Below, piece after piece: positions 737 to 37,561 of a stretch of DNA of 64,000 bases; the stretch's first letter is position 1; each line of letters starts with the position of its first letter. Made by a program: the position numbers and the translations under genes. A model generated the notes under the pieces. It had not been told where the DNA came from and made no database searches. It saw nothing but the letters and a program-made list of their open reading frames with translations. The stretch lies in assembly GCF_009914755.1 (NCBI RefSeq), contig NC_060927.1; one strand, given 5' to 3'. The DNA is from the human T2T-CHM13v2.0 reference genome, Homo sapiens.

Positions 737-747
737 TAATCCAATCA
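737..747 (+). promoter_or_regulatory. DUX4-type double-homeodomain motif TAATCCAATCA (one per unit)
   Basis: Exact match to TAAYYYAATCA; also starts at 7051, 13357, 19663, 25825, 32137, 38303, 44609, 50913, 57217, 63516. Confidence 0.5.
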
Positions 748-2504: not shown

Positions 2505-2624
2505 AGGAGGAAGGAAGGAAGGAAGCAAGGAAGAAAGGAAGGAAGGAAAGAAGGAAGGCAGGACGGAAGGAAGGAAGGAAGGAAGGAAGGAAGGAAGGAA
2601 GGAAAGAAGGATGAAAGGAAGGAG
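2505..2624 (+). repeat. (GGAA)n purine microsatellite, variable length (one per unit)
   Basis: Longest pure run 10x here, 8x in most units, 9x in units 5 and 6, 11x in unit 10; copies start at 8819, 15125, 21431, 27593, 33905, 40071, 46377, 52681, 58972. Confidence 0.95.
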
Positions 2625-3220: not shown

Positions 3221-6202
3221 TCACCGGTAGTGTGGCCCGCAGGGACGCCGACCTGCTGGAGCGTCGTGCCAGCATGGGCTGTGGCAAGCACGTGGGCCAG
3301 CAGGAGGTTCCCGCTGCACAGCTGTGGGGTGAGGATAGACTGGGTGGTGATATCGGCCATTACAGGGGCCTCTTCTGCTGGCAAGAGTGTGACAGTAGCA
3401 AGTAGATGGACAGGCCTGCGTGTGAGGACGGAATGCAGGAGGGGTTCTTGTGCGCCTGGGTGTGGGGCCCTCACGGGAACCGTGGAGAAATGGCCAGGTA
3501 ACTGCGTCATGTGGGCTAGTAGATTGGCCAGGGCTTCGAACTGAAGGACGATAATGGGGAGTAGCTGTCAGGCCCTGGGAGTGCCTGAGTGTAAGTGGAG
3601 ATGGGTTTGGGGTCACTGAGGGATGCGTGGGAGCCATCCCTGTATAGGTACAGGTCATAGGGAGATAGTCTCGTGAGGCCTGTGAGTGTCTAGGGTTGTC
3701 CTGGGTGCCTGGGGCTGACTGTGGCAGAAATCTGGGGAAGGCTGGAGAGAAGCTGGGAGACCCAGGAGAGTCCCTGAAGGCAGGGGGTGAAGAGGTGAAA
3801 GAAATGGGGGAGGGTTGCAGTAAGGTCCGTGAGTTTGTAGGTGATTCCTGGGTGCGGGAAGCTGACTCCAGGTGAAATCTGGAGATGGTTGGAGAGTAGC
3901 TGAGAGAGACAGAAGAGTCCCTGAGGGCTGGGGGTGAGAACATGAGGGAGACGGGGGAGTAAGTCAGTGAAATTCGTGAGTTCGGTGGTGTATCGTGGGT
4001 GCCTGGAACTGACTCCAGCTGGAATCTAGAGAAGTTTTGAGAGTAGCTGAAGGAGACACAAGAGTCCCTGTGGGCTGAGGGCAAAGACCTGAGAGAGACC
4101 AGGGAGGACCTCAGTGAAGTCTGTGAGTCTGTAGGTGATTCCGGAGTGTGGGAGGCTGACTCCTGCTGAAATCTGGGCGTGGTGGGAGAGTAGCTGGGAC
4201 AGACAGGAGAGTCCCAGGGGGCTGGGGGTGAAGACATGAGAGAGACTGGGGAGTAACTCAGTGAAATTGCTGAGTTGGTTGGTGATACCTGGGTGCCTGG
4301 AACTGACCCCCGCTGAAATCTGGGCATGGTTGGAGAGTAGCTGGGACACACAGGAGAGTCCCTGAGGGCTGGGGGTGAAGACATGAGCGAGACCGGGGAG
4401 TAACTGAGTGAAACTGGTGAGTTTGGTGGTGACTCCGGGGTGCCTGGAACTGACTCCAGCTGAAATGTGGGCGTGGTTGGAGAGTAGCTGGGACAGACAG
4501 GAGAGTCCCTGAGGACTGGTGAAGACATGAGAGAGAGTGGAGAGTAATTGAGTGAAATTGGTGAGTTTGGTGGTGATTCCTGGGTGCCTGGAACTGACTC
4601 CCGCTGAAGTGTGGGCGTGGTTGGAGAGTAGCTGGGACAGACAGGCGAGTCCCTGAGGGTTGGAGATAAAGACGTGCTAGAGACTGAGGAGTAACTGAGT
4701 GAAATTGGTGAGTTTGGTGGTGATTCCGGGGTGCCTGGAACGGACTCCAGCTGAAATGTGGGCGTGGTTGGAGAGTAGCTGGGACAGACGGGAGAGTCCC
4801 TGAGGGATGGTGAAGACATGAGAGAGACTGGGGAGTAACGCAGTGAAATTGGTGAGTTTGGTGGTGATTTCTGGGTGTCTGCAACGGACTCCCGCTGAAG
4901 TGTGGGCGTGCTTGGAGAGTAGCTGGGACAGACAGGCGAGTCCCTGAGGGTTGGAGATAAAGACGTGCTGGAGACTGGGGAGTAACTCAGTGAAAGTGGT
5001 GGGCTTGGTGGTGATCCCAGGGTTCCTGGAACTGACCCGCGCTGAAATGTGGGCGTGGTTGGAGAGTAGCTGGGACAGACTGGAGGGTCCGTAAGGGCTG
5101 GGGGTGAAGACGTGAGAGAGACTGTCGAGGATCTCACTGAGGTCTGTGAGTCTGTAGGTGTTTCTGGGGTGTGGGGTACAGACTCCCGCTGAAATCTGGG
5201 CGTAGTTGGAGAGTAGCTGGGACAGACAGGAGAGTCATGGGTGGCTGGGGGTGAGCTGCTGGATGATGGCAGTAAGAACATATGGTACATTATTGATGAA
5301 TGAGGTGACTGTGAAGAATCTCCAGAGGAGGACACGGGAGAACACAATGACATGAGTGACTGTCCTGCTTGGTTAGGAAAGGGAAACGTAAAGTTGTGGA
5401 ATTCTGTTGATGATGGATGTGAGAGTGGTGAAGCCCTGCGGGATGATGTAGAGGACTTCCACATCCCTGGTGAGGAGCTGCCCCTTGGGTCTGAGTTTCT
5501 GGGAGGGGAGAGGGAGAAGCTGGGTGAGGCAGGCATGAATCTTGAGGAGTCAGGGCTGGGGGACCGCTCATATTCTCCCGAGACCTGTGAGTCTCTGGGG
5601 GACTCCTGGGTGCATGGGGCTGGCTCCCGCAGGAACCTGGGGATGGCTGGAGAGTAACTGGGAGCCACAGGAGGGTCCCTGAGGCCTGGGGGTGAAGAGA
5701 TGCAAGACACAGGGGTGGAGCAGCGTGAGGCTCGTGAGTTTGTAGGTGATTCCTGGGTGTGGGGGGCTGACTCCAGCTGAAATCTGGGGTTGTTTGGAGA
5801 GTAGCTGGGAGACACAGGAGACCCCCCGAGAGCTGGGGGTGAGCTGCTGGGTGATGGCAGTAAGAACATGTGGTATATTATTGATGAACGTGGGGACTCT
5901 GAGGAGTCCTCAGAGGAGGACACGGCAGAGCCCAATGGCTTCATTGATTGCCCATCACGGTGAGGACAGGGAAATGGGAGCTTGTGGGATTCTGGTGATG
6001 ACAGAGGTGAGTGTGGTGAAGCCCTAGGGGATGGTGAATGGTAGTTCCGGATCCCTGGTGAGGAGCTTCCCCTTAAGCCTGAGTTTCTGAGAGGGGAGAG
6101 GGAGAAGCTGGGTGAGGCTCGCATGGACCTTGGGGTGTCCGTGCTGGGGGACCGTTCATAAGAAGAGCCAGACAAGACCCTACTGTTCTTAGGTGCAGAC
6201 AT
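3221..6202 (-). CDS. 993-aa Ser/Pro/Thr-rich disordered protein with Pol II CTD-like heptad repeats, copy 1
   Basis: Uninterrupted 2982-bp ORF; ATG has A at -3 (aatcATG); first AUG after the TATA/Inr; diverged 48/49-aa repeats all stay in frame. Confidence 0.7.
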   Translation of the reverse strand: MSAPKNSRVLSGSSYERSPSTDTPRSMRASPSFSLSPLRNSGLRGSSSPGIRNYHSPSPRASPHSPLSSPESHKLPFPCPHRDGQSMKPLGSAVSSSEDSSESPRSSIIYHMFLLPSPSSSPPALGGSPVSPSYSPNNPRFQLESAPHTQESPTNSRASRCSTPVSCISSPPGLRDPPVAPSYSPAIPRFLREPAPCTQESPRDSQVSGEYERSPSPDSSRFMPASPSFSLSPPRNSDPRGSSSPGMWKSSTSSRRASPLSHPSSTEFHNFTFPFPNQAGQSLMSLCSPVSSSGDSSQSPHSSIMYHMFLLPSSSSSPPATHDSPVCPSYSPTTPRFQRESVPHTPETPTDSQTSVRSSTVSLTSSPPALTDPPVCPSYSPTTPTFQRGSVPGTLGSPPSPPLSLSYSPVSSTSLSPTLRDSPVCPSYSPSTPTLQRESVADTQKSPPNSPISLRYSPVSLMSSPSLRDSPVCPSYSPTTPTFQLESVPGTPESPPNSPISLSYSSVSSTSLSPTLRDSPVCPSYSPTTPTLQRESVPGTQESPPNSPISLNYSPLSLMSSPVLRDSPVCPSYSPTTPTFQLESVPGTPESPPNSPVSLSYSPVSLMSSPPALRDSPVCPSYSPTMPRFQRGSVPGTQVSPTNSAISLSYSPVSLMSSPPAPWDSPVCPSYSPTTPRFQQESASHTPESPTDSQTSLRSSLVSLRSLPSAHRDSCVSFSYSQNFSRFQLESVPGTHDTPPNSRISLTYSPVSLMFSPPALRDSSVSLSYSPTISRFHLESASRTQESPTNSRTLLQPSPISFTSSPPAFRDSPGSPSFSPAFPRFLPQSAPGTQDNPRHSQASRDYLPMTCTYTGMAPTHPSVTPNPSPLTLRHSQGLTATPHYRPSVRSPGQSTSPHDAVTWPFLHGSREGPTPRRTRTPPAFRPHTQACPSTCYCHTLASRRGPCNGRYHHPVYPHPTAVQREPPAGPRACHSPCWHDAPAGRRPCGPHYR
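3670..5255 (-). repeat. 147/144-bp tandem array (ACRO1-like), 11 monomers, inside the CDS
   Basis: Anchor Tyr/Phe codon at 5213, 5066, 4919, 4775, 4628, 4484, 4337, 4190, 4043, 3896, 3749 (spacing 147 or 144); two more monomers near 5580-5860. Confidence 0.9.
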
Positions 6203-9526: not shown

Positions 9527-12508
9527 TCACCGGTAGTGTGGCCCGCAGGGACGCCGACCTGCTGGAGCGTCGTGCCAGCATGGGCTGTGGCAAGCACGTG
9601 GGCCAGCAGGAGGTTCCCGCTGCACAGCTGTGGGGTGAGGATAGACTGGGTGGTGATATCGGCCATTACAGGGGCCTCTTCTGCTGGCAAGAGTGTGACA
9701 GTAGCAAGTAGATGGACAGGCCTGCGTGTGAGGACGGAATGCAGGAGGGGTTCTTGTGCGCCTGGGTGTGGGGCCCTCACGGGAACCGTGGAGAAATGGC
9801 CAGGTAACTGCGTCATGTGGGCTAGTAGATTGGCCAGGGCTTCGAACTGAAGGACGATAATGGGGAGTAGCTGTCAGGCCCTGGGAGTGCCTGAGTGTAA
9901 GTGGAGATGGGTTTGGGGTCACTGAGGGATGTGTGGGAGCCATCCCTGTATAGGTACAGGTCATAGGGAGATAGTCTCGTGAGGCCTGTGAGTGTCTAGG
10001 GTTGTCCTGGGTGCCTGGGGCTGACTGTGGCAGAAATCTGGGGAAGGCTGGAGAGAAGCTGGGAGACCCAGGAGAGTCCCTGAAGGCAGGGGGTGAAGAG
10101 GTGAAAGAAATGGGGGAGGGTTGCAGTAAGGTCCGTGAGTTTGTAGGTGATTCCTGGGTGCGGGAAGCTGACTCCAGGTGAAATCTGGAGATGGTTGGAG
10201 AGTAGCTGAGAGAGACAGAAGAGTCCCTGAGGGCTGGGGGTGAGAACATGAGGGAGACGGGGGAGTAAGTCAGTGAAATTCGTGAGTTCGGTGGTGTATC
10301 GTGGGTGCCTGGAACTGACTCCAGCTGGAATCTAGAGAAGTTTTGAGAGTAGCTGAAGGAGACACAAGAGTCCCTGTGGGCTGAGGGCAAAGACCTGAGA
10401 GAGACCAGGGAGGACCTCAGTGAAGTCTGTGAGTCTGTAGGTGATTCCGGAGTGTGGGAGGCTGACTCCCGCTGAAATCTGGGCGTGGTGGGAGAGTAGC
10501 TGGGACAGACAGGAGAGTCCCAGGGGGCTGGGGGTGAAGACATGAGAGAGACTGGGGAGTAACTCAGTGAAATTGCTGAGTTGGTTGGTGATACCTGGGT
10601 GCCTGGAACTGACCCCCGCTGAAATCTGGGCATGGTTGGAGAGTAGCTGGGACACACAGGAGAGTCCCTGAGGGCTGGGGGTGAAGACATGAGCGAGACC
10701 GGGGAGTAACTGAGTGAAACTGGTGAGTTTGGTGGTGACTCCGGGGTGCCTGGAACTGACTCCAGCTGAAATGTGGGCGTGGTTGGAGAGTAGCTGGGAC
10801 AGACAGGAGAGTCCCTGAGGACTGGTGAAGACATGAGAGAGAGTGGAGAGTAATTGAGTGAAATTGGTGAGTTTGGTGGTGATTCCTGGGTGCCTGGAAC
10901 TGACTCCCGCTGAAGTGTGGGCGTGGTTGGAGAGTAGCTGGGACACACAGGAGAGTCCCTGAGGGTTGGAGATAAAGACGTGCTAGAGACTGAGGAGTAA
11001 CTGAGTGAAATTGGTGAGTTTGGTGGTGATTCCGGGGTGCCTGGAACGGACTCCAGCTGAAATGTGGGCGTGGTTGGAGAGTAGCTGGGACAGACGGGAG
11101 AGTCCCTGAGGGATGGTGAAGACATGAGAGAGACTGGGGAGTAACGCAGTGAAATTGGTGAGTTTGGTGGTGATTTCTGGGTGTCTGCAACGGACTCCCG
11201 CTGAAGTGTGGGCGTGCTTGGAGAGTAGCTGGGACAGACAGGCGAGTCCCTGAGGGTTGGAGATAAAGACGTGCTGGAGACTGGGGAGTAACTCAGTGAA
11301 AGTGGTGGGCTTGGTGGTGATCCCAGGGTTCCTGGAACTGACCCGCGCTGAAATGTGGGCGTGGTTGGAGAGTAGCTGGGACAGACTGGAGGGTCCGTAA
11401 GGGCTGGGGGTGAAGACGTGAGAGAGACTGGCGAGGATCTCACTGAGGTCTGTGAGTTTGTAGGTGTTTCTGGGGTGTGGGGTACAGACTCCCGCTGAAA
11501 TCTGGGCGTAGTTGGAGAGTAGCTGGGACAGACAGGAGAGTCATGGGTGGCTGGGGGTGAGCTGCTGGATGATGGCAGTAAGAACATATGGTACATTATT
11601 GATGAATGAGGTGACTGTGAAGAATCTCCAGAGGAGGACACGGGAGAACACAATGACATGAGTGACTGTCCTGCTTGGTTAGGAAAGGGAAACGTAAAGT
11701 TGTGGAATTCTGTTGATGATGGATGTGAGAGTGGTGAAGCCCTGCGGGATGATGTAGAGGACTTCCACATCCCTGGTGAGGAGCTGCCCCTTGGGTCTGA
11801 GTTTCTGGGAGGGGAGAGGGAGAAGCTGGGTGAGGCAGGCATGAATCTTGAGGAGTCAGGGCTGGGGGACCGCTCATATTCTCCCGAGACCTGTGAGTCT
11901 CTGGGGGACTCCTGGGTGCATGGGGCTGACTCCCGCAGGAACCTGGGGATGGCTGGAGAGTAACTGGGAGCCACAGGAGGGTCCCTGAGGCCTGGGGGTG
12001 AAGAGATGCAAGACACAGGGGTGGAGCAGCGTGAGGCTCGTGAGTTTGTAGGTGATTCCTGGGTGTGGGGGGCTGACTCCAGCTGAAATCTGGGGTTGTT
12101 TGGAGAGTAGCTGGGAGACACAGGAGACCCCCCGAGAGCTGGGGGTGAGCTGCTGGGTGATGGCAGTAAGAACATGTGGTATATTATTGATGAACGTGGG
12201 GACTCTGAGGAGTCCTCAGAGGAGGACACGGCAGAGCCCAATGGCTTCATTGATTGCCCATCACGGTGAGGACAGGGAAATGGGAGCTTGTGGGATTCTG
12301 GTGATGACAGAGGTGAGTGTGGTGAAGCCCTAGGGGATGGTGAATGGTAGTTCCGGATCCCTGGTGAGGAGCTTCCCCTTAAGCCTGAGTTTCTGAGAGG
12401 GGAGAGGGAGAAGCTGGGTGAGGCTCGCATGGACCTTGGGGTGTCCGTGCTGGGGGACCGTTCATAAGAAGAGCCAGACAAGACCCTACTGTTCTTAGGT
12501 GCAGACAT
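9527..12508 (-). CDS. 993-aa CTD-like repeat protein, copy 2
   Basis: Intact ORF, near-identical to copy 1. Confidence 0.7.
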   Translation of the reverse strand: MSAPKNSRVLSGSSYERSPSTDTPRSMRASPSFSLSPLRNSGLRGSSSPGIRNYHSPSPRASPHSPLSSPESHKLPFPCPHRDGQSMKPLGSAVSSSEDSSESPRSSIIYHMFLLPSPSSSPPALGGSPVSPSYSPNNPRFQLESAPHTQESPTNSRASRCSTPVSCISSPPGLRDPPVAPSYSPAIPRFLRESAPCTQESPRDSQVSGEYERSPSPDSSRFMPASPSFSLSPPRNSDPRGSSSPGMWKSSTSSRRASPLSHPSSTEFHNFTFPFPNQAGQSLMSLCSPVSSSGDSSQSPHSSIMYHMFLLPSSSSSPPATHDSPVCPSYSPTTPRFQRESVPHTPETPTNSQTSVRSSPVSLTSSPPALTDPPVCPSYSPTTPTFQRGSVPGTLGSPPSPPLSLSYSPVSSTSLSPTLRDSPVCPSYSPSTPTLQRESVADTQKSPPNSPISLRYSPVSLMSSPSLRDSPVCPSYSPTTPTFQLESVPGTPESPPNSPISLSYSSVSSTSLSPTLRDSPVCPSYSPTTPTLQRESVPGTQESPPNSPISLNYSPLSLMSSPVLRDSPVCPSYSPTTPTFQLESVPGTPESPPNSPVSLSYSPVSLMSSPPALRDSPVCPSYSPTMPRFQRGSVPGTQVSPTNSAISLSYSPVSLMSSPPAPWDSPVCPSYSPTTPRFQRESASHTPESPTDSQTSLRSSLVSLRSLPSAHRDSCVSFSYSQNFSRFQLESVPGTHDTPPNSRISLTYSPVSLMFSPPALRDSSVSLSYSPTISRFHLESASRTQESPTNSRTLLQPSPISFTSSPPAFRDSPGSPSFSPAFPRFLPQSAPGTQDNPRHSQASRDYLPMTCTYTGMAPTHPSVTPNPSPLTLRHSQGLTATPHYRPSVRSPGQSTSPHDAVTWPFLHGSREGPTPRRTRTPPAFRPHTQACPSTCYCHTLASRRGPCNGRYHHPVYPHPTAVQREPPAGPRACHSPCWHDAPAGRRPCGPHYR
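9976..11561 (-). repeat. ACRO1-like 147/144-bp array, 11 monomers
   Basis: As unit 1. Confidence 0.9.
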
Positions 12509-12823
12509 GATTAGGAAACCTGCAGCTCCCAGGGGCCCCCACTAATGTTCTAACTCGCAGAAGGAAGGAGTGTGTGTGCGTGTGTGAGTGTGCGTGTGTG
12601 TGTGTGTGTGTGTGTTTGCGTGTGTGCGGTGTGAGGTATGGGCCCCTTAAGGAAATGGAAATCAACCAACCAATGGGACAGACAGACAGACAGACAGACA
12701 GAGATTCACTTGCCCAAGTGTTCTGTCCTGTCCTCTGAATCCGCTTCCAAGTCGCAAGACGCTGTGAGCTCCAAGTCCACGCAGAGTCCGCCAAACGCTG
12801 CGGCCGCTGATCCGCTCCGCGAA

Positions 12824-12892
12824 GATCTGAGTACAGGCCAGCCAGGGTGGGTTTAAATAGCCTCGGGCGCAGCCTAGCAGCGGAAAGGGCGG
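12824..12892 (-). promoter_or_regulatory. Core promoter, copy 2 (predicted TSS 12828)
   Basis: TATA 12859-12852; GC box GGGCGGAGC. Confidence 0.65.
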
Positions 12893-13451
12893 AGCTTCAC
12901 TCCTCCTTTCCATCAGTCACCCCCAACTTTCCCAGGCTACACCTCGTAGGAAACTGTTCTCCTGCTTTGATTTCATGCGCCACCTTTGGGACAATCTAAG
13001 AACTTACAGGTTTTCTTGGCCAGATTTATTAGGAATTGTATGCACTGAAACACTGAAAACCAACTAGTGGTTCTGTGCTTCCCACGTTGTGGTTTTGACA
13101 CCAGCAGCATCCTTGCCACAATCAAACCCCGGAGATCCGCAGATCTGTGTTGTAACAAGACCTCCCCCTGACCCTGAAGCATGGCAGTTGAAGAAGTCTT
13201 TCCGTGTAAGCGAAAAGACTTTGAAGAAAAGGTGGAGATATGCGTTGTATAAACATTCTTTTGCTCTGGAACCACGTAGAGACTTGGGAGCCAGTTGGGT
13301 GGAGCATTCGTTGGATGAGGGTGCTCGGGTTAGGAATATCAAGGTGTTTCTCCAGATAATCCAATCATCTAATTAAGATTCCAGTTATGCTCATCTGTTT
13401 TAAAATTCCGTTTGGGTAAATTCTTTTAGTCAGACTGAGAATGGCAAACCC

Positions 13452-13906
13452 TCAACCCCAATTTCCAGGGAGGGTGGAGAGCCTCAGGTGGAGTTGATCA
13501 CCAATAGCCTATGGTTTAACCCATCATGCCTATAGAATGAGGTCTCCATCAAAACCCAAAAGGACTGGGTTCAGAGAGCTTCTGGATAACACTTCCTGGA
13601 AGGTAGTGCACCCCTCCCCGCATGGCGGGCCCCACATTTATTTCTGAACTTTGTGCAATGTCCGCTAAAATACAACGGCAAATGTAAGTGTTTCCCTGCG
13701 TGCTGTGAGCTCTTCCAGCAAATGAATGCAACTAAATCTGGGAGTGGTGGCAACCTGAATTATAGCCAGTTGCTGAGAAGCACAGGTAAAACAACGTAGG
13801 GCTTCCCATTGTTATTGGTGTGGGAGGCCTGTCTGGCGGGACTCGGCCCTTTGGAATCTAATGCTATGTCCCGGTAGATAGCGTCACCATTGAATTAGAA
13901 GACACA
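13452..13906 (+). mobile_element. MER21-family LTR remnant
   Basis: Copy of 832-1286. Confidence 0.75.
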
Positions 13907-14070
13907 CATATGTGGAGAATAATCTTTCTGGTCATTTACTGCATGTCATATTTACAATATGTAATCAAATTCTTTATCCTGACCTTATGGCACCTGGGTT
14001 TAGGACCATGATTTGAACCAAACGTTGGTCTGTCACTTTCTGAGTTTGAAACTTTATTTTGCCTTTAGCG

Positions 14071-14382
14071 TTTTGCTATTGCTTTTTCGTTTTCTTTTGT
14101 TTCGTTTCGTTTCTAAGTTCTGGGGTATATGTGCAGGATGTGCAGATTTGTTACTAAGGTAAACGTGTGCCATGGTGGTTTGCTGCACCTGTCAACCCGT
14201 CACCTAGGTATTAAGCCCAGCATGCAGTAGCTGTTTTTCTTAACGCTCTGCCTCCCGAAAGGCCCCAGTGTGTGTTGTTCCCCTTCCTGTGTCCATGGGA
14301 TCTCACTTTTCAGCTCCCATTATAAGTGAGAAGGTGGCGTTTGGTTTTCTTTCCCTGGATTAGTTTGCTGACGATAATGACC
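14071..14382 (-). mobile_element. L1PA 3' fragment
   Basis: Copy of 1451-1762. Confidence 0.9.
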
Positions 14383-15290
14383 ACACATCACCACTGTTTT
14401 TGTTTTTTAGTATAAAGAGTAGTATTTTATTGAATAAGATTTGCTCACAGAAAAATAAGCTTAAATCTACAATGAATGCCAGACCCTACAGCAGAAAGCA
14501 ATTTTCTCACTTTTCCACACACAATGGTTCCTACTAAGTGAAAAAAAAGCCATAAAATTTCATTCACAAATGTACTACTCTGTCTCAAAACATCTCACGT
14601 AATCATGCACTGTACTAAAGCCATCAGATCAGTTCTTCAGTCAGGTTAAAGAAGTATCCCTCTAATAACTGACTTTTATAATGCTATCAATATCCACTCC
14701 CAATCAGTCTGCCATTGTTAATGGTGTACAGCATTACTGAATACAACGGAATTGATGACGCCCATATCCACAGACAAACCGTGACTTATGATGGTTTGAT
14801 TTATGATTTTTCAACGTTATGATGGGTTTATTGGAATATTAGATTCGTTTCTGAGTTACACTGGGTTTATGAGTATGCGACCCTACACTCCAGAAACAGC
14901 TGTATAAGGAAAAACAGGTGTACCTAATAAAAATATGCTTAGTGACTTGGGATAAACCAATAGATGTTCACAAGTGATGGAGAGCCGTGAAAGAGAGATA
15001 GCGGTAAATAGTTACAATAACACAATTTTCCTGCACCTGTCGAGGATTTCCCCCAAAAAACGCAGAATGTGGGATGCACCTAAGGCATATGAAAGAGAGA
15101 GGGCAGAAGGAGTAAGAGAGAAATAGGAGGAAGGAAGGAAGGAAGCAAGGAAGAAAGGAAGGAAGGAAAGAAGGAAGGTAGGACGGAAGGAAGGAAGGAA
15201 GGAAGGAAGGAAGGAAAGAAGGATGAAAGGAAGGAGAAAACACCGGTGTTACTAAAACCCCCCAAAAAATGGTTTTCCCCTGTGGGTAAG

Positions 15291-15632
15291 CCTACAATGT
15301 GGATGAATCTTGAAAATATTTTGCTACGTGATATGTCAGTCATAGCAGCTCACCTATTGTGCAATTCCGTTTATAGGAAATGTCCACAATATGGAAATCT
15401 ATGCATATGGGATTGATCGCACTAGGTAGTTGCTACCTGGGGCTGAGGGTCAGGGAGAGGGTTTGAGACAGAATGAGGAGTGACTAATGTCTACAGGGTC
15501 TTTCTCTGGTCAGGGGTGATAAGACGTTTTACAATGGATTGCGAATTAAAATTGAATGTGCACAACCACAGGTATACTAAAAGCCACTCAATTCATGACC
15601 TTTAATGGGGGAATCTTACGTGGCGTAGTCTC
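15291..15632 (+). mobile_element. L1MB 3' fragment
   Basis: Copy of 2679-3020. Confidence 0.8.
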
Positions 15633-15832
15633 ATGGAGACCACGGCAGACATAGTGAGAGAGAAAAAGGTGAGTAAATATCTGAAACGGAGGCAGAAACA
15701 GAGAGAATGAAAAGCCCTGTGAATGGAAGGGAGAGCGAAAAGGGAAAATGGTCCTATTTACAAATGACAGATGTGAAACTGGGGTTCACATCAACAGTGT
15801 CACTGCCAGGAAGGAGGGTCATGCTAGCCATG

Positions 15833-18814
15833 TCACCGGTAGTGTGGCCCGCAGGGACGCCGACCTGCTGGAGCGTCGTGCCAGCATGGGCTGTGGCAAG
15901 CACGTGGGCCAGCAGGAGGTTCCCGCTGCACAGCTGTGGGGTGAGGATAGACTGGGTGGTGATATCGGCCATTACAGGGGCCTCTTCTGCTGGCAAGAGT
16001 GTGACAGTAGCAAGTAGATGGACAGGCCTGCGTGTGAGGACGGAATGCAGGAGGGGTTCTTGTGCGCCTGGGTGTGGGGCCCTCACGGGAACCGTGGAGA
16101 AATGGCCAGGTAACTGCGTCATGTGGGCTAGTAGATTGGCCAGGGCTTCGAACTGAAGGACGATAATGGGGAGTAGCTGTCAGGCCCTGGGAGTGCCTGA
16201 GTGTAAGTGGAGATGGGTTTGGGGTCACTGAGGGATGCGTGGGAGCCATCCCTGTATAGGTACAGGTCATAGGGAGATAGTCTCGTGAGGCCTGTGAGTG
16301 TCTAGGGTTGTCCTGGGTGCCTGGGGCTGACTGTGGCAGAAATCTGGGGAAGGCTGGAGAGAAGCTGGGAGACCCAGGAGAGTCCCTGAAGGCAGGGGGT
16401 GAAGAGGTGAAAGAAATGGGGGAGGGTTGCAGTAAGGTCCGTGAGTTTGTAGGTGATTCCTGGGTGCGGGAAGCTGACTCCAGGTGAAATCTGGAGATGG
16501 TTGGAGAGTAGCTGAGAGAGACAGAAGAGTCCCTGAGGGCTGGGGGTGAGAACATGAGGGAGACGGGGGAGTAAGTCAGTGAAATTCGTGAGTTCGGTGG
16601 TGTATCGTGGGTGCCTGGAACTGACTCCAGCTGGAATCTAGAGAAGTTTTGAGAGTAGCTGAAGGAGACACAAGAGTCCCTGTGGGCTGAGGGCAAAGAC
16701 CTGAGAGAGACCAGGGAGGACCTCAGTGAAGTCTGTGAGTCTGTAGGTGATTCCGGAGTGTGGGAGGCTGACTCCTGCTGAAATCTGGGCGTGGTGGGAG
16801 AGTAGCTGGGACAGACAGGAGAGTCCCAGGGGGCTGGGGGTGAAGACATGAGAGAGACTGGGGAGTAACTCAGTGAAATTGCTGAGTTGGTTGGTGATAC
16901 CTGGGTGCCTGGAACTGACCCCCGCTGAAATCTGGGCATGGTTGGAGAGTAGCTGGGACACACAGGAGAGTCCCTGAGGGCTGGGGGTGAAGACATGAGC
17001 GAGACCGGGGAGTAACTGAGTGAAACTGGTGAGTTTGGTGGTGACTCCGGGGTGCCTGGAACTGACTCCAGCTGAAATGTGGGCGTGGTTGGAGAGTAGC
17101 TGGGACAGACAGGAGAGTCCCTGAGGACTGGTGAAGACATGAGAGAGAGTGGAGAGTAATTGAGTGAAATTGGTGAGTTTGGTGGTGATTCCTGGGTGCC
17201 TGGAACTGACTCCCGCTGAAGTGTGGGCGTGGTTGGAGAGTAGCTGGGACACACAGGAGAGTCCCTGAGGGTTGGAGATAAAGACGTGCTAGAGACTGAG
17301 GAGTAACTGAGTGAAATTGGTGAGTTTGGTGGTGATTCCGGGGTGCCTGGAACGGACTCCAGCTGAAATGTGGGCGTGGTTGGAGAGTAGCTGGGACAGA
17401 CGGGAGAGTCCCTGAGGGATGGTGAAGACATGAGAGAGACTGGGGAGTAACGCAGTGAAATTGGTGAGTTTGGTGGTGATTTCTGGGTGTCTGCAACGGA
17501 CTCCCGCTGAAGTGTGGGCGTGCTTGGAGAGTAGCTGGGACAGACAGGCGAGTCCCTGAGGGTTGGAGATAAAGACGTGCTGGAGACTGGGGAGTAACTC
17601 AGTGAAAGTGGTGGGCTTGGTGGTGATCCCAGGGTTCCTGGAACTGACCCGCGCTGAAATGTGGGCGTGGTTGGAGAGTAGCTGGGACAGACTGGAGGGT
17701 CCGTAAGGGCTGGGGGTGAAGACGTGAGAGAGACTGGCGAGGATCTCACTGAGGTCTGTGAGTTTGTAGGTGTTTCTGGGGTGTGGGGTACAGACTCCCG
17801 CTGAAATCTGGGCGTAGTTGGAGAGTAGCTGGGACAGACAGGAGAGTCATGGGTGGCTGGGGGTGAGCTGCTGGATGATGGCAGTAAGAACATATGGTAC
17901 ATTATTGATGAATGAGGTGACTGTGAAGAATCTCCAGAGGAGGACACGGGAGAACACAATGACATGAGTGACTGTCCTGCTTGGTTAGGAAAGGGAAACG
18001 TAAAGTTGTGGAATTCTGTTGATGATGGATGTGAGAGTGGTGAAGCCCTGCGGGATGATGTAGAGGACTTCCACATCCCTGGTGAGGAGCTGCCCCTTGG
18101 GTCTGAGTTTCTGGGAGGGGAGAGGGAGAAGCTGGGTGAGGCAGGCATGAATCTTGAGGAGTCAGGGCTGGGGGACCGCTCATATTCTCCCGAGACCTGT
18201 GAGTCTCTGGGGGACTCCTGGGTGCATGGGGCTGACTCCCGCAGGAACCTGGGGATGGCTGGAGAGTAACTGGGAGCCACAGGAGGGTCCCTGAGGCCTG
18301 GGGGTGAAGAGATGCAAGACACAGGGGTGGAGCAGCGTGAGGCTCGTGAGTTTGTAGGTGATTCCTGGGTGTGGGGGGCTGACTCCAGCTGAAATCTGGG
18401 GTTGTTTGGAGAGTAGCTGGGAGACACAGGAGACCCCCCGAGAGCTGGGGGTGAGCTGCTGGGTGATGGCAGTAAGAACATGTGGTATATTATTGATGAA
18501 CGTGGGGACTCTGAGGAGTCCTCAGAGGAGGACACGGCAGAGCCAAATGGCTTCATTGATTGCCCATCACGGTGAGGACAGGGAAATGGGAGCTTGTGGG
18601 ATTCTGGTGATGACAGAGGTGAGTGTGGTGAAGCCCTAGGGGATGGTGAATGGTAGTTCCGGATCCCTGGTGAGGAGCTTCCCCTTAAGCCTGAGTTTCT
18701 GAGAGGGGAGAGGGAGAAGCTGGGTGAGGCTCGCATGGACCTTGGGGTGTCCGTGCTGGGGGACCGTTCATAAGAAGAGCCAGACAAGACCCTACTGTTC
18801 TTAGGTGCAGACAT
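15833..18814 (-). CDS. 993-aa CTD-like repeat protein, copy 3
   Basis: Intact ORF; L90F variant. Confidence 0.7.
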   Translation of the reverse strand: MSAPKNSRVLSGSSYERSPSTDTPRSMRASPSFSLSPLRNSGLRGSSSPGIRNYHSPSPRASPHSPLSSPESHKLPFPCPHRDGQSMKPFGSAVSSSEDSSESPRSSIIYHMFLLPSPSSSPPALGGSPVSPSYSPNNPRFQLESAPHTQESPTNSRASRCSTPVSCISSPPGLRDPPVAPSYSPAIPRFLRESAPCTQESPRDSQVSGEYERSPSPDSSRFMPASPSFSLSPPRNSDPRGSSSPGMWKSSTSSRRASPLSHPSSTEFHNFTFPFPNQAGQSLMSLCSPVSSSGDSSQSPHSSIMYHMFLLPSSSSSPPATHDSPVCPSYSPTTPRFQRESVPHTPETPTNSQTSVRSSPVSLTSSPPALTDPPVCPSYSPTTPTFQRGSVPGTLGSPPSPPLSLSYSPVSSTSLSPTLRDSPVCPSYSPSTPTLQRESVADTQKSPPNSPISLRYSPVSLMSSPSLRDSPVCPSYSPTTPTFQLESVPGTPESPPNSPISLSYSSVSSTSLSPTLRDSPVCPSYSPTTPTLQRESVPGTQESPPNSPISLNYSPLSLMSSPVLRDSPVCPSYSPTTPTFQLESVPGTPESPPNSPVSLSYSPVSLMSSPPALRDSPVCPSYSPTMPRFQRGSVPGTQVSPTNSAISLSYSPVSLMSSPPAPWDSPVCPSYSPTTPRFQQESASHTPESPTDSQTSLRSSLVSLRSLPSAHRDSCVSFSYSQNFSRFQLESVPGTHDTPPNSRISLTYSPVSLMFSPPALRDSSVSLSYSPTISRFHLESASRTQESPTNSRTLLQPSPISFTSSPPAFRDSPGSPSFSPAFPRFLPQSAPGTQDNPRHSQASRDYLPMTCTYTGMAPTHPSVTPNPSPLTLRHSQGLTATPHYRPSVRSPGQSTSPHDAVTWPFLHGSREGPTPRRTRTPPAFRPHTQACPSTCYCHTLASRRGPCNGRYHHPVYPHPTAVQREPPAGPRACHSPCWHDAPAGRRPCGPHYR
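16282..17867 (-). repeat. ACRO1-like 147/144-bp array, 11 monomers
   Basis: As unit 1. Confidence 0.9.
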
Positions 18815-18889
18815 GATTAGGAAACCTGCAGCTCCCAGGGGCCCCCACTAATGTTCTAACTCGCAGAAGGAAGGAGTGTGTGTGCGTGT

Positions 18890-18921
<32 letters not shown>

Positions 18922-19129
18922 TTGTGTGTGTGCGGTGTGAGGTATGGGCCCCTTAAGGAAATGGAAATCAACCAACCAATGGGACAGACAGACAGACAGA
19001 CAGACAGAGATTCACTTGCCCAAGTGTTCTGTCCTGTCCTCTGAATCCGCTTTCAAGTCGCAAGACGCTGTGAGCTCCAAGTCCACGCAGAGTCCGCCAA
19101 ACGCTCCGGCCGCTGATCCGCTCCGCGAA

Positions 19130-19198
19130 GATCTGAGTACAGGCCAGCCAGGGTGGGTTTAAATAGCCTCGGGCGCAGCCTAGCAGCGGAAAGGGCGG
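19130..19198 (-). promoter_or_regulatory. Core promoter, copy 3 (predicted TSS 19134)
   Basis: Same motifs. Confidence 0.65.
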
Positions 19199-19757
19199 AG
19201 CTTCACTCCTCCTTTCCATCAGTCACCCCCAACTTTCCCAGGCTACACCTCGTAGGAAACTGTTCTCCTGCTTTGATTTCATGCGCCACCTTTGGGACAA
19301 TCTAAGAACTTACAGGTTTTCTTGGCCAGATTTATTAGGAATTGTATGCACTGAAACACTGAAAACCAACTAGTGGTTCTGTGCTTCCCACGTTGTGGTT
19401 TTGACACCAGCAGCATCCTTGCCACAATCAAACCCCGGAGATCCGCAGATCTGTGTTGTAACAAGACCTCCCCCTGACCCTGAAACATGGCAGTTGAAGA
19501 AGTCTTTCCGTGTAAGCGAAAAGACTTTGAAGAAAAGGTGGAGATATGCGTTGTATAAACATTCTTTTGCTCTGGAACCACGTAGAGACTTGGGAGCCAG
19601 TTGGGTGGAGCATTCGTTGGATGAGGGTGCTCGGGTTAGGAATATCAAGGTGTTTCTCCAGATAATCCAATCATCTAATTAAGATTCCAGTTATGCTCAT
19701 CTGTTTTAAAATTCCGTTTGGGTAAATTCTTTTAGTCAGACTGAGAATGGCAAAGCC

Positions 19758-20212
19758 TCAACCCCAATTTCCAGGGAGGGTGGAGAGCCTCAGGTGGAGT
19801 TGATCACCAATAGCCTATGGTTTAACCCATCATGCCTATAGAATGTGGTCTCCATCAAAACCCAAAAGGACTGGGTTCAGAGAGCTTCTGGATAACACTT
19901 CCTGGAAGGTAGTGCGCCCCTCCCCGCATGGCGGGCCCCACATTTATTTCTGAACTTTGTGCAATGTCCGCTAAAATACAACGGCAAATGTAAGTGATTC
20001 CCTGCGTGCTGTGAGCTCTTCCAGCAAATGAATGCAACTAAATCTGGGAGTGGTGGCAACCTGATTTATAGCCAGTTGCTGAGAAGCACAGGTAAAACAA
20101 CGTAGGGCTTCCCATTGTTATTGGTGTGGGAGGCCTGTCTGGCGGGACTCGGCCCTTTGGAATCTAATGCTATGTCCCGGTAGATAGCGTCACCATTGAA
20201 TTAGAAGACACA
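19758..20212 (+). mobile_element. MER21-family LTR remnant
   Basis: Copy of 832-1286. Confidence 0.75.
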
Positions 20213-20376
20213 CATATGTGGAGAATAATCTTTCTGGTCATTTACTGCATGTCATATTTACAATATGTAATCAAATTCTTTATCCTGACCTTATGGCACC
20301 TGGGTTTAGGACCATGATTTGAACCAAACGTTGGTCTGTCACTTTCTGAGTTTGAAACTTTATTTTGCCTTTAGCG

Positions 20377-20688
20377 TTTTGCTATTGCTTTTTCGTTTTC
20401 TTTTGTTTCGTTTCGTTTCTAAGTTCTGGGGTATATGTGCAGGATGTGCAGATTTGTTACTAAGGTAAACGTGTGCCATGGTGGTTTGCTGCACCTGTCA
20501 ACCCGTCACCTAGGTATTAAGCCCAGCATGCAGTAGCTGTTTTTCTTAACGCTCTGCCTCCCGAAAGGCCCCAGTGTGTGTTGTTCCCCTTCCTGTGTCC
20601 ATGGGATCTCACTTTTCAGCTCCCATTATAAGTGAGAAGGTGGCGTTTGGTTTTCTTTCCCTGGATTAGTTTGCTGACGATAATGACC
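20377..20688 (-). mobile_element. L1PA 3' fragment
   Basis: Copy of 1451-1762. Confidence 0.9.
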
Positions 20689-21596
20689 ACACATCACCAC
20701 TGTTTTTGTTTTTTAGTATAAAGAGTAGTATTTTATTGAATAAGATTTGCTCACAGAAAAATAAGTTTAAATCTACAACGAATGCCAGAGCCTACAGCAG
20801 AAAGCAATTTTCTCACTTTTCCACACACAATGGTTCCTAATAAGTGAAAAGAAAGCCATAAAATTTCATTCACAAATGTACTACTCTGTCTCAAAACACC
20901 TCACGTAATCATGCACTGTACTAAAGCCATCAGATCAGTTCTTCAGTCAGGTTAAAGAAGTATCCCTCTAATAACTGACTTTTATAATGCTATCAATATC
21001 CACTCCCAATCAGTCTGCCATTGTTAATGGTGTACAGCATTACTGAATACAACGGAATTGATGACGCCCATATCCACAGACAAACCGTGACTTATGATGG
21101 TTTGATTTATGATTTTTCAACGTTATGATGGGTTTATTGGAATATTAGATTCGTTTCTGAGTTACACTGGGTTTATGAGTATGCGACCCTACACTCCAGA
21201 AACAGCTGTATAAGGAAAAACAGGTGTACCTAATAAAAATATGCTTAGTGACTTGGGATAAACCAATAGATGTTCACAAGTGATGGAGAGCCGTGAAAGA
21301 GAGATAGCGGTAAATAGTTACAATAACACAATTTTCCTGCACCTGTCGAGGATTTCCCCCAAAAAACGCAGAATGTGGGATGCACCTAAGGCATATGAAA
21401 GAGAGAGGGCAGAAGGAGTAAGAGAGAAATAGGAGGAAGGAAGGAAGGAAGCAAGGAAGAAAGGAAGGAAGGAAAGAAGGAAGGTAGGACGGAAGGAAGG
21501 AAGGAAGGAAGGAAGGAAGGAAAGAAGGATGAAAGGAAGGAGAAAACACCGGTGTTACTAAAACCCCCCAAAAAATGGTTTCCCCCTGTGGGTAAG

Positions 21597-21938
21597 CCTA
21601 CAATGTGGATGAATCTTGAAAATATTGTGCTACGTGTTATGTCAGTCATAGCAGCTCACCTATTGTGCAATTCCGTTTATAGGAAATGTCCACAATATGG
21701 AAATCTATGCATATGGGATTGATCGCACTAGGTAGTTGCTACCTGGGGCTGAGGGTCAGGGAGAGGGTTTGAGACAGAATGAGGAGTGACTAATGTCTAC
21801 AGGGTCTTTCTCTGGTCGGGGCTGATAAGACGTTTTACAATGGATTGCGAATTAAAATTGAATGTGCACAACCACAGGTATACTAAAAGCCACTCAATTC
21901 ATGACCTTTAATGGGGGAATCTTACGTGGCGTAGTCTC
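21597..21938 (+). mobile_element. L1MB 3' fragment
   Basis: Copy of 2679-3020. Confidence 0.8.
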
Positions 21939-22138
21939 ATGGAGACCACGGCAGACATAGTGAGAGAGAAAAAGGTGAGTAAATATCTGAAACGGAGGCA
22001 GAAACAGAGAGAATGAAAAGCCCTGTGAATGGAAGGGAGAGCGAAAAGGGAAAATGGTCCTATTTACAAATGACAGATGTGAAACTGGGGTTCACATCAA
22101 CAGTGTCACTGCCAGGAAGGAGGGTCATGCTAGCCATG

Positions 22139-24976: not shown

Positions 24977-25291
24977 GATTAGGAAACCTGCAGCTCCCAG
25001 GGGCCCCCACTAATGTTCTAACTCGCAGAAGGAAGGAGTGTGTGTGCGTGTGTGAGTGTGCGTGTGTGTGTGTGTGTGTGTGTTTGTGTGTGTGCGGTGT
25101 GAGGTATGGGCCCCTTAAGGAAATGGAAATCAACCAACCAATGGGACAGACAGACAGACAGACAGACAGAGATTCACTTGCCCAAGTGTTCTGTCCTGTC
25201 CTCTGAATCCGCTTCCAAGTCGCAAGACGCTGTGAGCTCCAAGTCCACGCAGAGTCCGCCAAACGCTGCGGCCGCTGATCCGCTCCGCGAA

Positions 25292-25360
25292 GATCTGAGT
25301 ACAGGCCAGCCAGGGTGGGTTTAAATAGCCTCGGGCGCAGCCTAGCAGCGGAAAGGGCGG
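25292..25360 (-). promoter_or_regulatory. Core promoter, copy 4 (predicted TSS 25296)
   Basis: Same motifs. Confidence 0.65.
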
Positions 25361-37454: not shown

Positions 37455-37529
37455 GATTAGGAAACCTGCAGCTCCCAGGGGCCCCCACTAATGTTCTAAC
37501 TCGCAGAAGGAAGGAGTGTGTGTGCGTGT

Positions 37530-37561
<32 letters not shown>

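What the first reader, a model, noticed from the sequence alone, without database searches (positions are those of the whole stretch)
3670..5255. The 147-bp ACRO1-like monomer is exactly 7 x 21 bp: seven degenerate CTD heptads
Seen: the 49-aa repeat parses as DSPVCPS/YSPTTPT/FQLESVP/GTPESPP/NSPVSLS/YSPVSLM/SSPPALR. Against Y1S2P3T4S5P6S7: S/T-P at positions 2-3 in 6 of 7 heptads, S/T at 5 in 5 of 7, Y/F at 1 in 3 of 7. Ser7 codons are AGY (CCC AGC TAC TCT CCA ACC; CTC AGT TAC TCC CCA GTC TCT) while Ser2 and Ser5 are TCN, and position-7 variants include R (AGA) and T (ACA). From recall, POLR2A has the same codon split and similar position-7 variants. Monomer length changes only by one codon (144 vs 147) despite clear divergence between monomers. 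Inference: the satellite arose from a POLR2A CTD fragment (retrocopy or duplication), or by strong convergence, and was then amplified as a 7-heptad block under frame constraint.
Basis: partly seen in the sequence, partly recalled or inferred. Interest (0 to 1): 0.88.

Follow-up and report, generated by a model that had tools for sequence, protein, structure and literature searches.

The report
ACRO1 satellite is an old gene's coding repeat
The 147-base ACRO1 satellite unit really is built from seven 21-base sub-units that resemble the tail repeat of RNA polymerase II, but it sits inside a long open reading frame with relatives in whales, so it looks like the expanded coding repeat of an old gene, not a recent copy of the polymerase gene.

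Summary
Observation confirmed. The block is the ACRO1 array of one 6.3-kb ACRO/ACRE unit. Lags 21, 63 and 42 are the top 3 of 73 autocorrelation lags. The 21-mer consensus, TAC TCA CCA GTC TCA CTC AGA, matches the POLR2A CTD heptad codons in frame: 14/21; 0 of 5000 column permutations and 3 of 720 codon orders reach it. The Ser7=AGY versus Ser2/5=TCN split holds in both sequences.

The CTD likeness and the idea of CTD descent are already printed (Boots 2020, PMC7714431). It is also weaker than printed: one monomer gives E about 1 against PDB sequences.

New here: the array lies in an ATG-to-stop frame of 993 or 945 codons, open in all 10 units. That frame has 0 stops, against 13 and 17 in the other two frames of the same strand. 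Predicted proteins from marmoset, colobus and two whales, and unnamed records, share its start, an IMYHMF motif, the RDSPxxPSYSPTxPRF unit and the C-terminus. An intact compact paralogue lies on chr2, and old decayed copies lie on chr19.

No POLR2A flank homology was found. A recent POLR2A retrocopy is rejected; deep descent from CTD-coding DNA stays possible (about 0.3).

The parts
3626..5236 (-). Main ACRO1 array of unit 1. It holds 11 in-frame monomers of 49 or 48 codons. Each 147-nt monomer is 7 x 21 nt.
5531..5824 (-). Short upstream ACRO1 block: one full monomer (5678-5824) and one partial monomer, in the same frame.
   Evidence: It matches the '256 bp array' described in Boots 2020.
3221..6202 (-). 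Intronless ATG-to-stop frame of 993 codons. The ATG of MSAPKNS is at 6202-6200 and the stop is at 3223-3221. The stop-to-stop frame is 3224-6235 (1004 codons).
   Evidence: Whale and marmoset proteins align from their residue 1 at window position 6202.
9527..62669 (-). The same frame in the other nine units. Stop-to-stop spans are 9530-12541, 15836-18847, 22142-25009, 28308-31319, 34620-37487, 40782-43793, 47088-50096, 53392-56400 and 59691-62702. In total, eight units have 993 codons and two have 945.
737..747 (+). TAATCCAATCA, a match to the DUX4-type motif TAAYBBAATCA. It occurs once per unit. The copy at 7051-7061 lies about 850 nt upstream of the ATG at 6202.
   Evidence: 11 matches against 0.45 expected for the whole window, but only one independent site per unit (my estimate p about 0.05). 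The motif is recalled, not taken from a tool.
2508..2623 (+). (AGGA)n, equivalent to (GGAA)n, microsatellite of about 27-29 copies. It occurs once per unit.

Best explanation
What it is. The block is the ACRO1 satellite of the 6.3-kb ACRO/ACRE macrosatellite. The 147-bp monomer is the 49-codon internal repeat of an old, fast-evolving, Ser/Pro-rich intronless reading frame of about 1000 codons.

Shown:
- The frame is open in every unit of the window and in most scored copies on chr3, 13, 14, 15, 21 and 22.
- It starts at an ATG that aligns with the start of predicted proteins from marmoset and two whales.
- It has a compact two-unit paralogue with an intact frame on chr2 and old decayed copies in a zinc-finger gene cluster on chr19.

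Inferred history:
1. A short heptad-type (21-bp) repeat grew into a 49-codon unit before primates and whales split.
2. Unequal crossing-over in 147-bp register then expanded that unit inside the frame. This adds or removes whole codons, so the frame survives.
3. In primates the whole gene, with flanking transposon pieces, was amplified as a tandem 6.3-kb unit.

The CTD likeness. The 21-bp consensus resembles the Pol II CTD heptad codons in frame, including AGY at Ser7. This likeness is real but modest, and it is concentrated in the family's conserved core, DSPVSPS-YSPTxPR. It did not come from a recent POLR2A copy. I rate convergence or chance in an SP-motif repeat as somewhat more likely than deep descent from CTD-coding DNA.

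Expression. Transcription is reported as DUX4-induced with a 4-cell peak (other people's data). The C-rich coding strand is reported to give an RNA that binds Pol II and stalls it in cis.
For: Frame:
- 0 stops in 1004 codons, against 13 and 17 in the other two frames of the same strand.
- Simulated substitutions make stops in all three frames at like rates, 6.9, 6.35 and 5.55 per 212 changes. Composition therefore does not explain the open frame.
- 10 of 10 units in the window are open. 24 of 30 fetched copies keep a frame of about 1003 aa or more; 6 are cut to 540-977 aa. By my hand count, 91 of 113 scored places list an open frame of 900 aa or more.
- chr3 versus the young chr19 copy: 212 substitutions in 2961 sites, with all 3 internal indels 3 nt long. 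Frame 1 has 2 stops where 6.9 are expected; frames 2 and 3 have 6 and 5 where 6.35 and 5.55 are expected.

Homologues:
- Marmoset P0005: 832 aa, 58-63% identity by tblastn.
- Colobus P0010.
- Rice's whale P0006: E=1e-6 in 5.8e9 sequences; tblastn E=3.5e-16, with residue 1 aligning at the ATG; BLASTP against the compact human ORF E=1e-5.
- Gray whale P0007; unnamed P0009 (E=1e-6); P0024, P0077, P0078.
- Shared motifs are visible in alignment A1.

Sub-period and CTD match.

No POLR2A flank match.

Literature, passages only:
- PMC7714431.
- PMC6545021.
- PMC12767296.
- PMC8990217 and PMC11467316.
Against: No clear purifying selection on the protein within primates:
- dN/dS is 0.74 (chr3 vs chr19) and 0.92 (chr3 vs chr2). 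Control frames give 0.81 and 1.01, and 0.84 and 0.87.
- Substitutions are even over codon positions, 68/67/77.
- Among monomers, pN/pS is 0.77, with 1.20 and 0.79 in the control frames.
The frame may now be a relic carried along by amplification of one open master copy.

Other weaknesses:
- The many open copies are 98-100% alike, so they are not independent.
- The whale and marmoset proteins are computer predictions. Their pairwise E-values are modest (1e-5 to 1e-6) and the sequences are low-complexity.
- I could not see repeat annotation of the unit. Part of the frame outside ACRO1 could be transposon-derived.
- No Pfam family matches.
- No evidence of translation was available.
Confidence: 0.72

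Rival explanations
1. Recent (primate-age) origin. A retrocopy or duplicated piece of the POLR2A CTD exon was amplified directly into the ACRO1 satellite.
For: - The 21-mer matches in frame, 14/21.
- Ser7 is AGY.
- The best ungapped windows are 19/21, 33/42 and 59/84, all in phase.
- The literature calls ACRO primate-specific.
Against: - The unit and its frame have homologues in whales and other records.
- Only the CTD part of the 3.6-kb POLR2A 3' region matches the unit. No linker, tail or UTR matches.
- Identity to the CTD consensus is 72-86/147 (49-59%). By recalled neutral primate rates a copy under 70 My old should be above 85%.
- Old chr19 copies are no more CTD-like than young ones.
Confidence: 0.03
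2. Deep descent. Before the primate-whale split, a stretch of CTD-coding DNA of at least two, perhaps seven, heptads was built into a new reading frame. The 49-codon unit is its decayed descendant.
For: - Frame and register coincide; it is the best of 42 registrations.
- 0 of 5000 column permutations and 3 of 720 codon orders reach the match.
- The silent feature Ser7=AGY with Ser2/5=TCN is shared.
- Sub-repeats match the CTD consensus (84/147) at least as well as their own leave-one-out consensus (77/147).
- Nucleotide likeness is equal in monomers whose protein likeness differs, as neutral decay would give.
- By my estimate from recalled rates, about 55% identity fits 100-200 My of near-neutral decay.
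Against: - One monomer against PDB sequences gives only E=1.1-2.3, and the compact chr2 ORF gives no hit.
- The Pfam CTD model gives no hit.
- The family profile finds no RPB1 among 70 hits in 1.84e9 proteins.
- If SP is treated as a block, the order test weakens to about 0.02-0.05 (my estimate).
- The two AGY-TAC junctions may be one event.
- There is no signal at third codon positions: 0.33 against a background of 0.28.
- Non-primate relatives are CTD-like mainly in two heptads.
- Other human loci match the CTD model better, at chr16:30.91 Mb and chr1:215.87 Mb.
Confidence: 0.28
3. Non-coding satellite. The open frame and the heptad reading are by-products of a pyrimidine-rich strand with a 21-bp sub-repeat, and no gene was ever involved.
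For: - The strand is 40% C.
- The other frames also hold long open stretches of 185-242 aa.
- dN/dS is near the control frames.
- RefSeq annotates no gene here (hub note).
Against: - 0 stops against 13 and 17 on the same strand, with equal stop-proneness in simulation.
- The frame runs about 1400 nt beyond the ACRO1 blocks.
- The ATG, the non-repeat motifs and the C-terminus are shared with whale, marmoset and other proteins.
- All three internal indels against the chr19 copy are 3 nt long.
Confidence: 0.12

Closest known systems
ACRO1 satellite within the 6-kb ACRO composite ('ACRE'), as described by Boots et al. 2020 (PMC7714431) and PMC12767296
   Same: - 147-bp monomer.
- A long block plus a short block of about 256 bp, inside a tandem unit of about 6 kb.
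- Copies on chr3 and on acrocentric chr13, 14, 15, 21 and 22.
- The translation matches the CTD at up to 23/49 residues, the figure Boots gives.
   Different: Both papers call the element primate-specific and treat it as satellite plus transposon pieces. In the passages I read, neither mentions a ~1000-codon frame, its ATG, or relatives outside primates. I did not see their supplements. I could not align to the Dfam or Repbase consensus, which is not held here.
RNA polymerase II RPB1 C-terminal domain heptad repeat (YSPTSPS; Pfam PF05001)
   Same: - 21-bp/7-residue period.
- In-frame consensus YSPVSLR against YSPTSPS, 14/21 nt.
- Ser7 is AGY and Ser2/5 are TCN.
- RPB1 chains or CTD peptides are the only PDB sequences below E=0.01, of 14 listed, for the whole array, and all 4 listed for one monomer.
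   Different: - There is no Pfam hit.
- A single monomer is not significant (E about 1).
- Heptad 3 (FQLESVP) matches 4/21 nt.
- The repeat unit is 49 residues, not 7.
- No RPB1 body or POLR2A flanks are present.
- The host frame has its own N- and C-terminal parts.
Gene-bearing macrosatellites such as D4Z4 with DUX4 (recalled knowledge)
   Same: - A kilobase-scale unit in head-to-tail arrays near centromeres and on acrocentric short arms.
- One complete intronless frame per unit.
- Transcripts reported at the human 4-cell stage and after DUX4 expression (passages).
   Different: The product has no known domain and looks disordered from its composition. Translation is unproven and recent protein-level constraint is not detectable. 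The frame itself contains a satellite (ACRO1).

Membership tests
ACRO1 / ACRO (ACRE) composite satellite | Tandem 147-bp monomers | tested here: met
   TRF gives period 147, 10.6 copies and 80% matches at 3699-5254, and the same in the other nine units.
ACRO1 / ACRO (ACRE) composite satellite | Monomer blocks (one long, one of about 256 bp) embedded in a tandem unit of about 6 kb | tested here: met
   The unit period is about 6306 bp. The blocks lie at 3626-5236 and 5531-5824. The description comes from Boots 2020.
ACRO1 / ACRO (ACRE) composite satellite | Copies on acrocentric short arms and chr3 | tested here: met
   All 40 scored matches are at 98-100% identity and lie on chr3, 13, 14, 15, 21 and 22.
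ACRO1 / ACRO (ACRE) composite satellite | Alignment to the Dfam/Repbase ACRO1 consensus | not testable with these tools
   No Dfam or Repbase library is held. The name rests on the features above and on the 23/49 CTD match also reported by Boots.
RNA Pol II CTD heptad repeat (PF05001) | Match to the Pfam model above its cut-off | tested here: not met
   hmmscan of the 1004-aa frame gives no PF05001 hit at E<=10. The own-genome search gives 17 matches, none in ACRE, with only 150 of 629 candidates scored.
RNA Pol II CTD heptad repeat (PF05001) | Tandem heptads with consensus Y-S-P-T-S-P-S | tested here: inconclusive
   The 7-residue period is real. The consensus is YSPVSLR, 4/7 aa and 14/21 nt. 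Per sub-repeat, 15, 16, 4, 10, 12, 15 and 12 of 21 nt match. Single-monomer E is 1.1-2.3.
RNA Pol II CTD heptad repeat (PF05001) | Continuity with RPB1/POLR2A sequence on either side | tested here: not met
   Lenient blastn and tblastx of the 6.3-kb unit against 3.6 kb of the POLR2A 3' end match only the CTD exon part. Upstream POLR2A exons were not fetched.
RNA Pol II CTD heptad repeat (PF05001) | Codon signature: Ser7 AGY, Ser2 and Ser5 TCN | tested here: met
   ACRO1 consensus: position 7 has 2/2 AGY, and positions 1, 2 and 5 have 10/10 TCN. POLR2A: position 7 has 22 AGY and 3 TCN. Synonymous shuffle gives p=0.009.
Gene-bearing macrosatellite (D4Z4-like kind) | One complete ATG-to-stop frame per tandem unit | tested here: met
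   10 of 10 units have a frame of 993 or 945 codons.
Gene-bearing macrosatellite (D4Z4-like kind) | The frame has homologues outside the array and outside the lineage | tested here: met
   A chr2 compact intact ORF, and marmoset, colobus, two whale and unnamed records.
Gene-bearing macrosatellite (D4Z4-like kind) | Selective constraint on the product | tested here: inconclusive
   There is a deficit of stops, and the three indels are all 3 nt long. But dN/dS of 0.74-0.92 is no different from the control frames.
Gene-bearing macrosatellite (D4Z4-like kind) | The product is made | not testable with these tools
   No expression, ribosome-profiling or peptide data are held here. Transcription is known only from the cited papers.

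The most novel reading that the evidence does not exclude
The ACRO/ACRE arrays on the acrocentric short arms and near the chr3 centromere are not plain satellites. They are hundreds of copies of a DUX4-switched, cleavage-stage gene that predates primates. Its product is a disordered Ser/Pro protein with CTD-like heptads (core SPxSPSYSPTxP). It could act as a decoy or substrate for the enzymes and readers of the Pol II tail at genome activation. Its own mRNA binds and stalls Pol II, as Boots 2020 reports. In whales the homologue may sit beside a DUX-type gene.
Probability: 0.15. Interest if true: 0.88.

Novelty: new member of a known kind. Interest (0 to 1): 0.6.

Why it matters

What the follow-up adds would change how a well-known satellite is filed. 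Current papers call ACRO a primate-specific composite of satellite and transposon pieces whose 4-cell expression is unexplained.

If it is an amplified old gene, three things follow:
- The strict multiple-of-three monomer length and the long open frame are explained.
- The 'primate-specific' label is wrong for its core.
- A concrete test opens up: look for ribosome footprints and peptides from one defined frame in DUX4-expressing cells and cleavage embryos, mapped to complete genomes.

It also gives the CTD-descent question a proper comparative frame, namely DNA of the non-primate homologues in place of one human consensus.

Tried and rejected
- Rfam on 1-7000: no match.
- Pfam on the frame, on 40 other stop-to-stop frames of 45 aa or more chosen from the 66 found in window 1-6700 (the overlapping frames inside the array were left out), and on 5 homologues: nothing above cut-off. 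The weak rows were Homeodomain E=0.055 at 505-744(-), Yae1_N and DUF3930. I take these as noise, given 45 proteins scanned.
- Flank homology to POLR2A: none.
- The E=1.5e-8 of the whole array against RPB1 is not a fair figure. It is inflated by about ten near-identical monomers, as searches show.
- Purifying selection by dN/dS: not detectable.
- 'Older copies are more CTD-like': not seen.
- ESM Atlas look-up of P0024: no usable hit.
- Earlier findings of this scan: not open.
- Diverged ACRE families (chr4, chr1, chr20, chr2:132.7 Mb) were seen only as rows or not at all, because only the best candidates are scored.
- No paper in the held library was found that treats ACRO1/ACRE as a gene. Searches were 'ACRO1'+'satellite' (35 papers, 20 listed), 'ACRO1'+'open reading frame' (10 papers, 8 listed), 'ACRO1'+'DUX4' (8 papers, 6 listed) and 'RPB1-like'+'satellite'+'acrocentric' (0 papers). 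Subscription papers and all supplements were not seen.
Full report
WHAT IS THERE. The window is ten head-to-tail copies of a unit of about 6306 bp. Each unit holds a 147-bp array (3699-5254 in unit 1; 10.6 copies, 80% matches), a (GGAA)n tract, a (GT)n tract and a (GACA)n tract. On the minus strand the array reads as 11 units of 49 or 48 codons (3626-5236). A further full unit and a partial one lie upstream at 5531-5824. This matches the ACRO1 satellite inside the 6-kb 'ACRE'/ACRO composite described in Boots et al. 2020 (PMC7714431, passages) and in PMC12767296 (passages). The same 3-kb stretch recurs at 98-100% identity on chr3, 13, 14, 15, 21 and 22; all 40 scored matches of 249 candidates are of this kind.

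- Nucleotide autocorrelation over the 9 monomers of 147 nt puts lags 21, 63 and 42 first among 73 lags (0.413, 0.389, 0.382; multiples of three average 0.288).
- Every one of the 9 monomers beats codon shuffles (z 2.9-7.8).
- Five monomers from much older chr19 copies do too (z 3.7-5.6).

I took the POLR2A CTD exon from the window's own genome (chr17). In its 46 regular heptads, Ser7 is AGY 22 times and TCN 3 times, while Ser2 and Ser5 are mostly TCN. In the ACRO1 consensus monomer, both Ser at position 7 are AGY and all ten other Ser are TCN.

HOW CTD-LIKE IS IT.
- The consensus of the seven sub-repeats is TAC TCA CCA GTC TCA CTC AGA (YSPVSLR). The CTD consensus is TAC TCC CCC ACC TCT CCC AGC. 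That is 14/21.
- The best of 42 registrations is the in-frame one, with profile similarity 0.514; the next best is 0.372.
- No column permutation of 5000 reaches it (maximum 0.478). 3 of 720 codon orders do.
- Sub-repeats match the CTD consensus at 15, 16, 4, 10, 12, 15 and 12 of 21 nt, 84/147 in all. Against their own leave-one-out consensus they score 77/147.
- The signal is in codon positions 1 and 2. It is absent at position 3: 0.33 against a background of 0.28.
- Shuffling synonymous codons lowers the match (p=0.009).
- The best ungapped windows against the real exon are 19/21, 33/42 and 59/84, all in phase. The 84-nt window beats 60 of 60 codon shuffles and 60 of 60 synonymous shuffles. 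The 42-nt window is reached by 5 of 60 synonymous shuffles, and the 21-nt window by 42 of 60.

Results against a strong CTD claim:
- The Pfam CTD model does not hit the frame.
- The array's E=1.5e-8 against RPB1 chains comes from about ten near-identical monomers. One monomer gives E=1.1-2.3, although all four listed sequences are CTD peptides. The two-unit chr2 protein gives nothing.
- The two AGY-TAC junctions may go back to one event.
- If SP is treated as a fixed dipeptide, I estimate that the order test weakens to about 0.02-0.05.

PRIOR ART. Boots et al. [quoted passage not shown] My best monomer also scores 23/49. Their e-value of 1.9e-15 comes from a global alignment without composition correction, so tempers it. 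In the text I searched they do not mention a long frame, stop codons or 21 bp.

THE ARRAY LIES IN A LONG FRAME.
- The minus strand is open from 6235 to 3224 (1004 codons), with an ATG at 6202 (993 codons). The frame spans both ACRO1 blocks and about 1400 nt of other sequence.
- The other two frames of the same strand carry 13 and 17 stops.
- Simulated substitutions create stops in all three frames at like rates (6.9, 6.35 and 5.55 per 212 changes). Base composition therefore does not explain the open frame.
- All ten units are open: eight with 993 codons and two lacking one 48-codon monomer.
- 24 of 30 fetched copies elsewhere keep a frame of about 1003 aa or more. The other six are cut to 540-977 aa.
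- In a wider search, by my hand count, 91 of 113 scored places list an open frame of 900 aa or more. Lengths step by 49, for example 1006, 1055 and 1104, and reach up to 1582.
- These copies are close kin, so they count as few observations.

RELATIVES. A search of 5.8e9 proteins with the frame returned:
- a marmoset protein of 832 aa (P0005);
- a Rice's whale protein of 633 aa (P0006, E=1e-6).
Their sources name both 'RNA polymerase II subunit RPB1', evidently by likeness.

The whale query then found a gray whale protein (P0007) and two unnamed records, P0008 and P0009. tblastn places residue 1 of the marmoset and whale proteins at the ATG at 6202.

Shared features that are not low-complexity include:
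- SIMYHMF;
- PALRDSPxxxSYSP followed by PR[FL];
- a C-terminal CPSTCYCHTLA, which reads CSSACYCQAL in P0009.

A profile of six members found 70 proteins at E<=0.001 among 1.84e9, and none of them is an RPB1. They include a 355-aa form with one or two units (P0024) and a divergent form with about five units of about 49 residues (P0077). BLASTP with composition adjustment gives E=1e-5 (whale) and 1e-6 (P0009) against the compact human protein. These are predictions, and the scores are modest; the collinearity carries the case.

OTHER HUMAN COPIES.
- chr2:161,739,833-161,740,915 holds an intact compact frame: 358 codons from the ATG, with the N-terminal part, one unit, the last unit and the C-terminal part. 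It is 98% identical to P0078. It differs from the matching parts of the chr3 frame at 56 of 1107 sites, with no gaps.
- A 33-kb stretch of chr19 lies among zinc-finger genes. It holds about 1.1 units at 89% identity and two fragments at 71-73% identity with broken frames. The element is therefore much older than the arrays.

IS THE FRAME UNDER SELECTION NOW? The evidence is mixed.
- chr3 versus the young chr19 copy: 212 substitutions in 2961 sites. All three internal indels are 3 nt long. There are two stops in frame 1 against 6.9 expected, while frames 2 and 3 show 6 and 5 against 6.35 and 5.55.
- Against that, dN/dS is 0.74 (control frames 0.81 and 1.01), and 0.92 against chr2 (controls 0.84 and 0.87). 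Substitutions are even over codon positions.
- Among monomers, pN/pS is 0.77, 1.20 and 0.79 for the three frames.
I read this as a frame that was coding in the past. It may or may not be coding today.

ORIGIN OF THE CTD LIKENESS. A recent POLR2A copy is excluded:
- There is no match to POLR2A outside the CTD, in the 3.6 kb of its 3' end that I held.
- Identity to the CTD consensus is 72-86 of 147 nt in all 15 monomers tested, old and young alike.
- The unit predates primates.

Two readings remain.
- Deep descent fits the shared frame, the AGY signature and the star-like distances.
- Convergence or chance fits the weak single-unit statistics, the restriction of the likeness in non-primate relatives to the core DSPVSPS-YSPTxPR, the weaker 7-residue period there (z 2.0-3.4 against 4.3 in marmoset), and the existence of other human loci that match the CTD model better.
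I put deep descent near 0.3.

EXPRESSION CONTEXT, from papers (passages only). ACRO1 RNA peaks at the 4-cell stage (PMC6545021). DUX4 induces ACRO1 transcripts. ACRO1 RNA binds Pol II and blocks elongation in cis, while its reverse complement does not. Each unit carries one match to the recalled DUX4 motif, about 850 nt upstream of the ATG. For one unit this is only about a 1-in-20 event by my estimate.

LIMITS.
- No repeat annotation, no non-primate DNA and no expression data were available.
- Supplements of the cited papers were not seen. In particular, Boots SI Fig. S3 on unit structure and primate conservation may bear on the claims about unit make-up and age.
- The rates used for dating are recalled.

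Noticed in passing
P0007 (gray whale protein), last ~87 residues; matches at e.g. G000:C1:128443101-128443343, C13:9629801-9630040, C10:42544298-42544495, C3:95379255-95379491: The gray whale gene model joins the ACRE-type Ser/Pro frame to a C-terminal end (LLDELL......LEAPLSEEEFQALLDML). From recall this looks like the DUX4/DUXC C-terminus. In the human genome it matches 150 scored places (E 3.5e-7 to 5e-3) on acrocentric short arms, chr1 near 128 Mb, chr10 near 42.5 Mb and chr3 at 95.38 Mb, which is the spread I recall for D4Z4-like repeats. It has no match inside the ACRE unit. In whales the homologue may lie beside a DUX-type gene.
   Followed up: partly
window 737-747 and every ~6306 bp after (7051-7061 ...): There is one exact match per unit to the recalled DUX4-type motif (TAATCCAATCA). 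It lies about 850 nt upstream of the frame's ATG. This fits the published DUX4 induction of ACRO1 RNA, but it is a single site per unit.
   Followed up: partly
G000:C2:161739833-161740915 (L055): An intact compact paralogue of the ACRE frame lies on chr2: 358 codons, two units and no array. It differs from the chr3 copy at 5% of sites with no gaps. Whether it is the pre-expansion form or a collapsed copy is open.
   Followed up: partly
G000:C19:47270001-47303000 (L051-L054): Within a zinc-finger gene cluster there are one ~1.1-unit ACRE copy at 89% identity and two old fragments at 71-73% identity with broken frames. One of the old fragments abuts the younger copy. A further copy is listed at C19:47234716. 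This could be the ancestral neighbourhood.
   Followed up: partly
window 2508-2623 and the same place in each unit: Each unit holds a (GGAA)n microsatellite of about 27-29 copies. One listed paper (PMC11060741, abstract start only) reports that ETS fusion proteins bind and activate GGAA-rich pericentromeric repeats, and it mentions ACRO1.
   Followed up: no
G000:C16:30912683-30912931(-) and G000:C1:215870425-215870460(-): Two other human loci match the Pfam CTD-repeat model at or near its cut-off. One of them lies within a 536-aa open frame. They would serve as natural controls for CTD-like heptads outside RPB1. They could not be fetched.
   Followed up: no
window 3626-5236 and old chr19 monomers: There are two monomer types...NSPISLS YSPVSLM... 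and ...DSQTSLR SSLVSLR... / ...NSQTSLC SSPMCSI.... Both already exist in the old chr19 copy. TRF scores periods of 291 and 438 above 147. This suggests an old two- or three-monomer higher order.
   Followed up: partly
rows (chr13, 14, 15, 21, 22): Different ACRE arrays carry open frames of different lengths (about 956, 1006, 1055, 1104, 1148, 1342, 1390 and 1582 aa). That is, they hold different numbers of 49-codon units, all still open.
   Followed up: no
window 505-744 (-): There is a weak Pfam Homeodomain row (E=0.055, helix-3 part only...VSTWFQSKR...) in a broken frame. Among 45 proteins scanned this is at noise level.
   Followed up: partly
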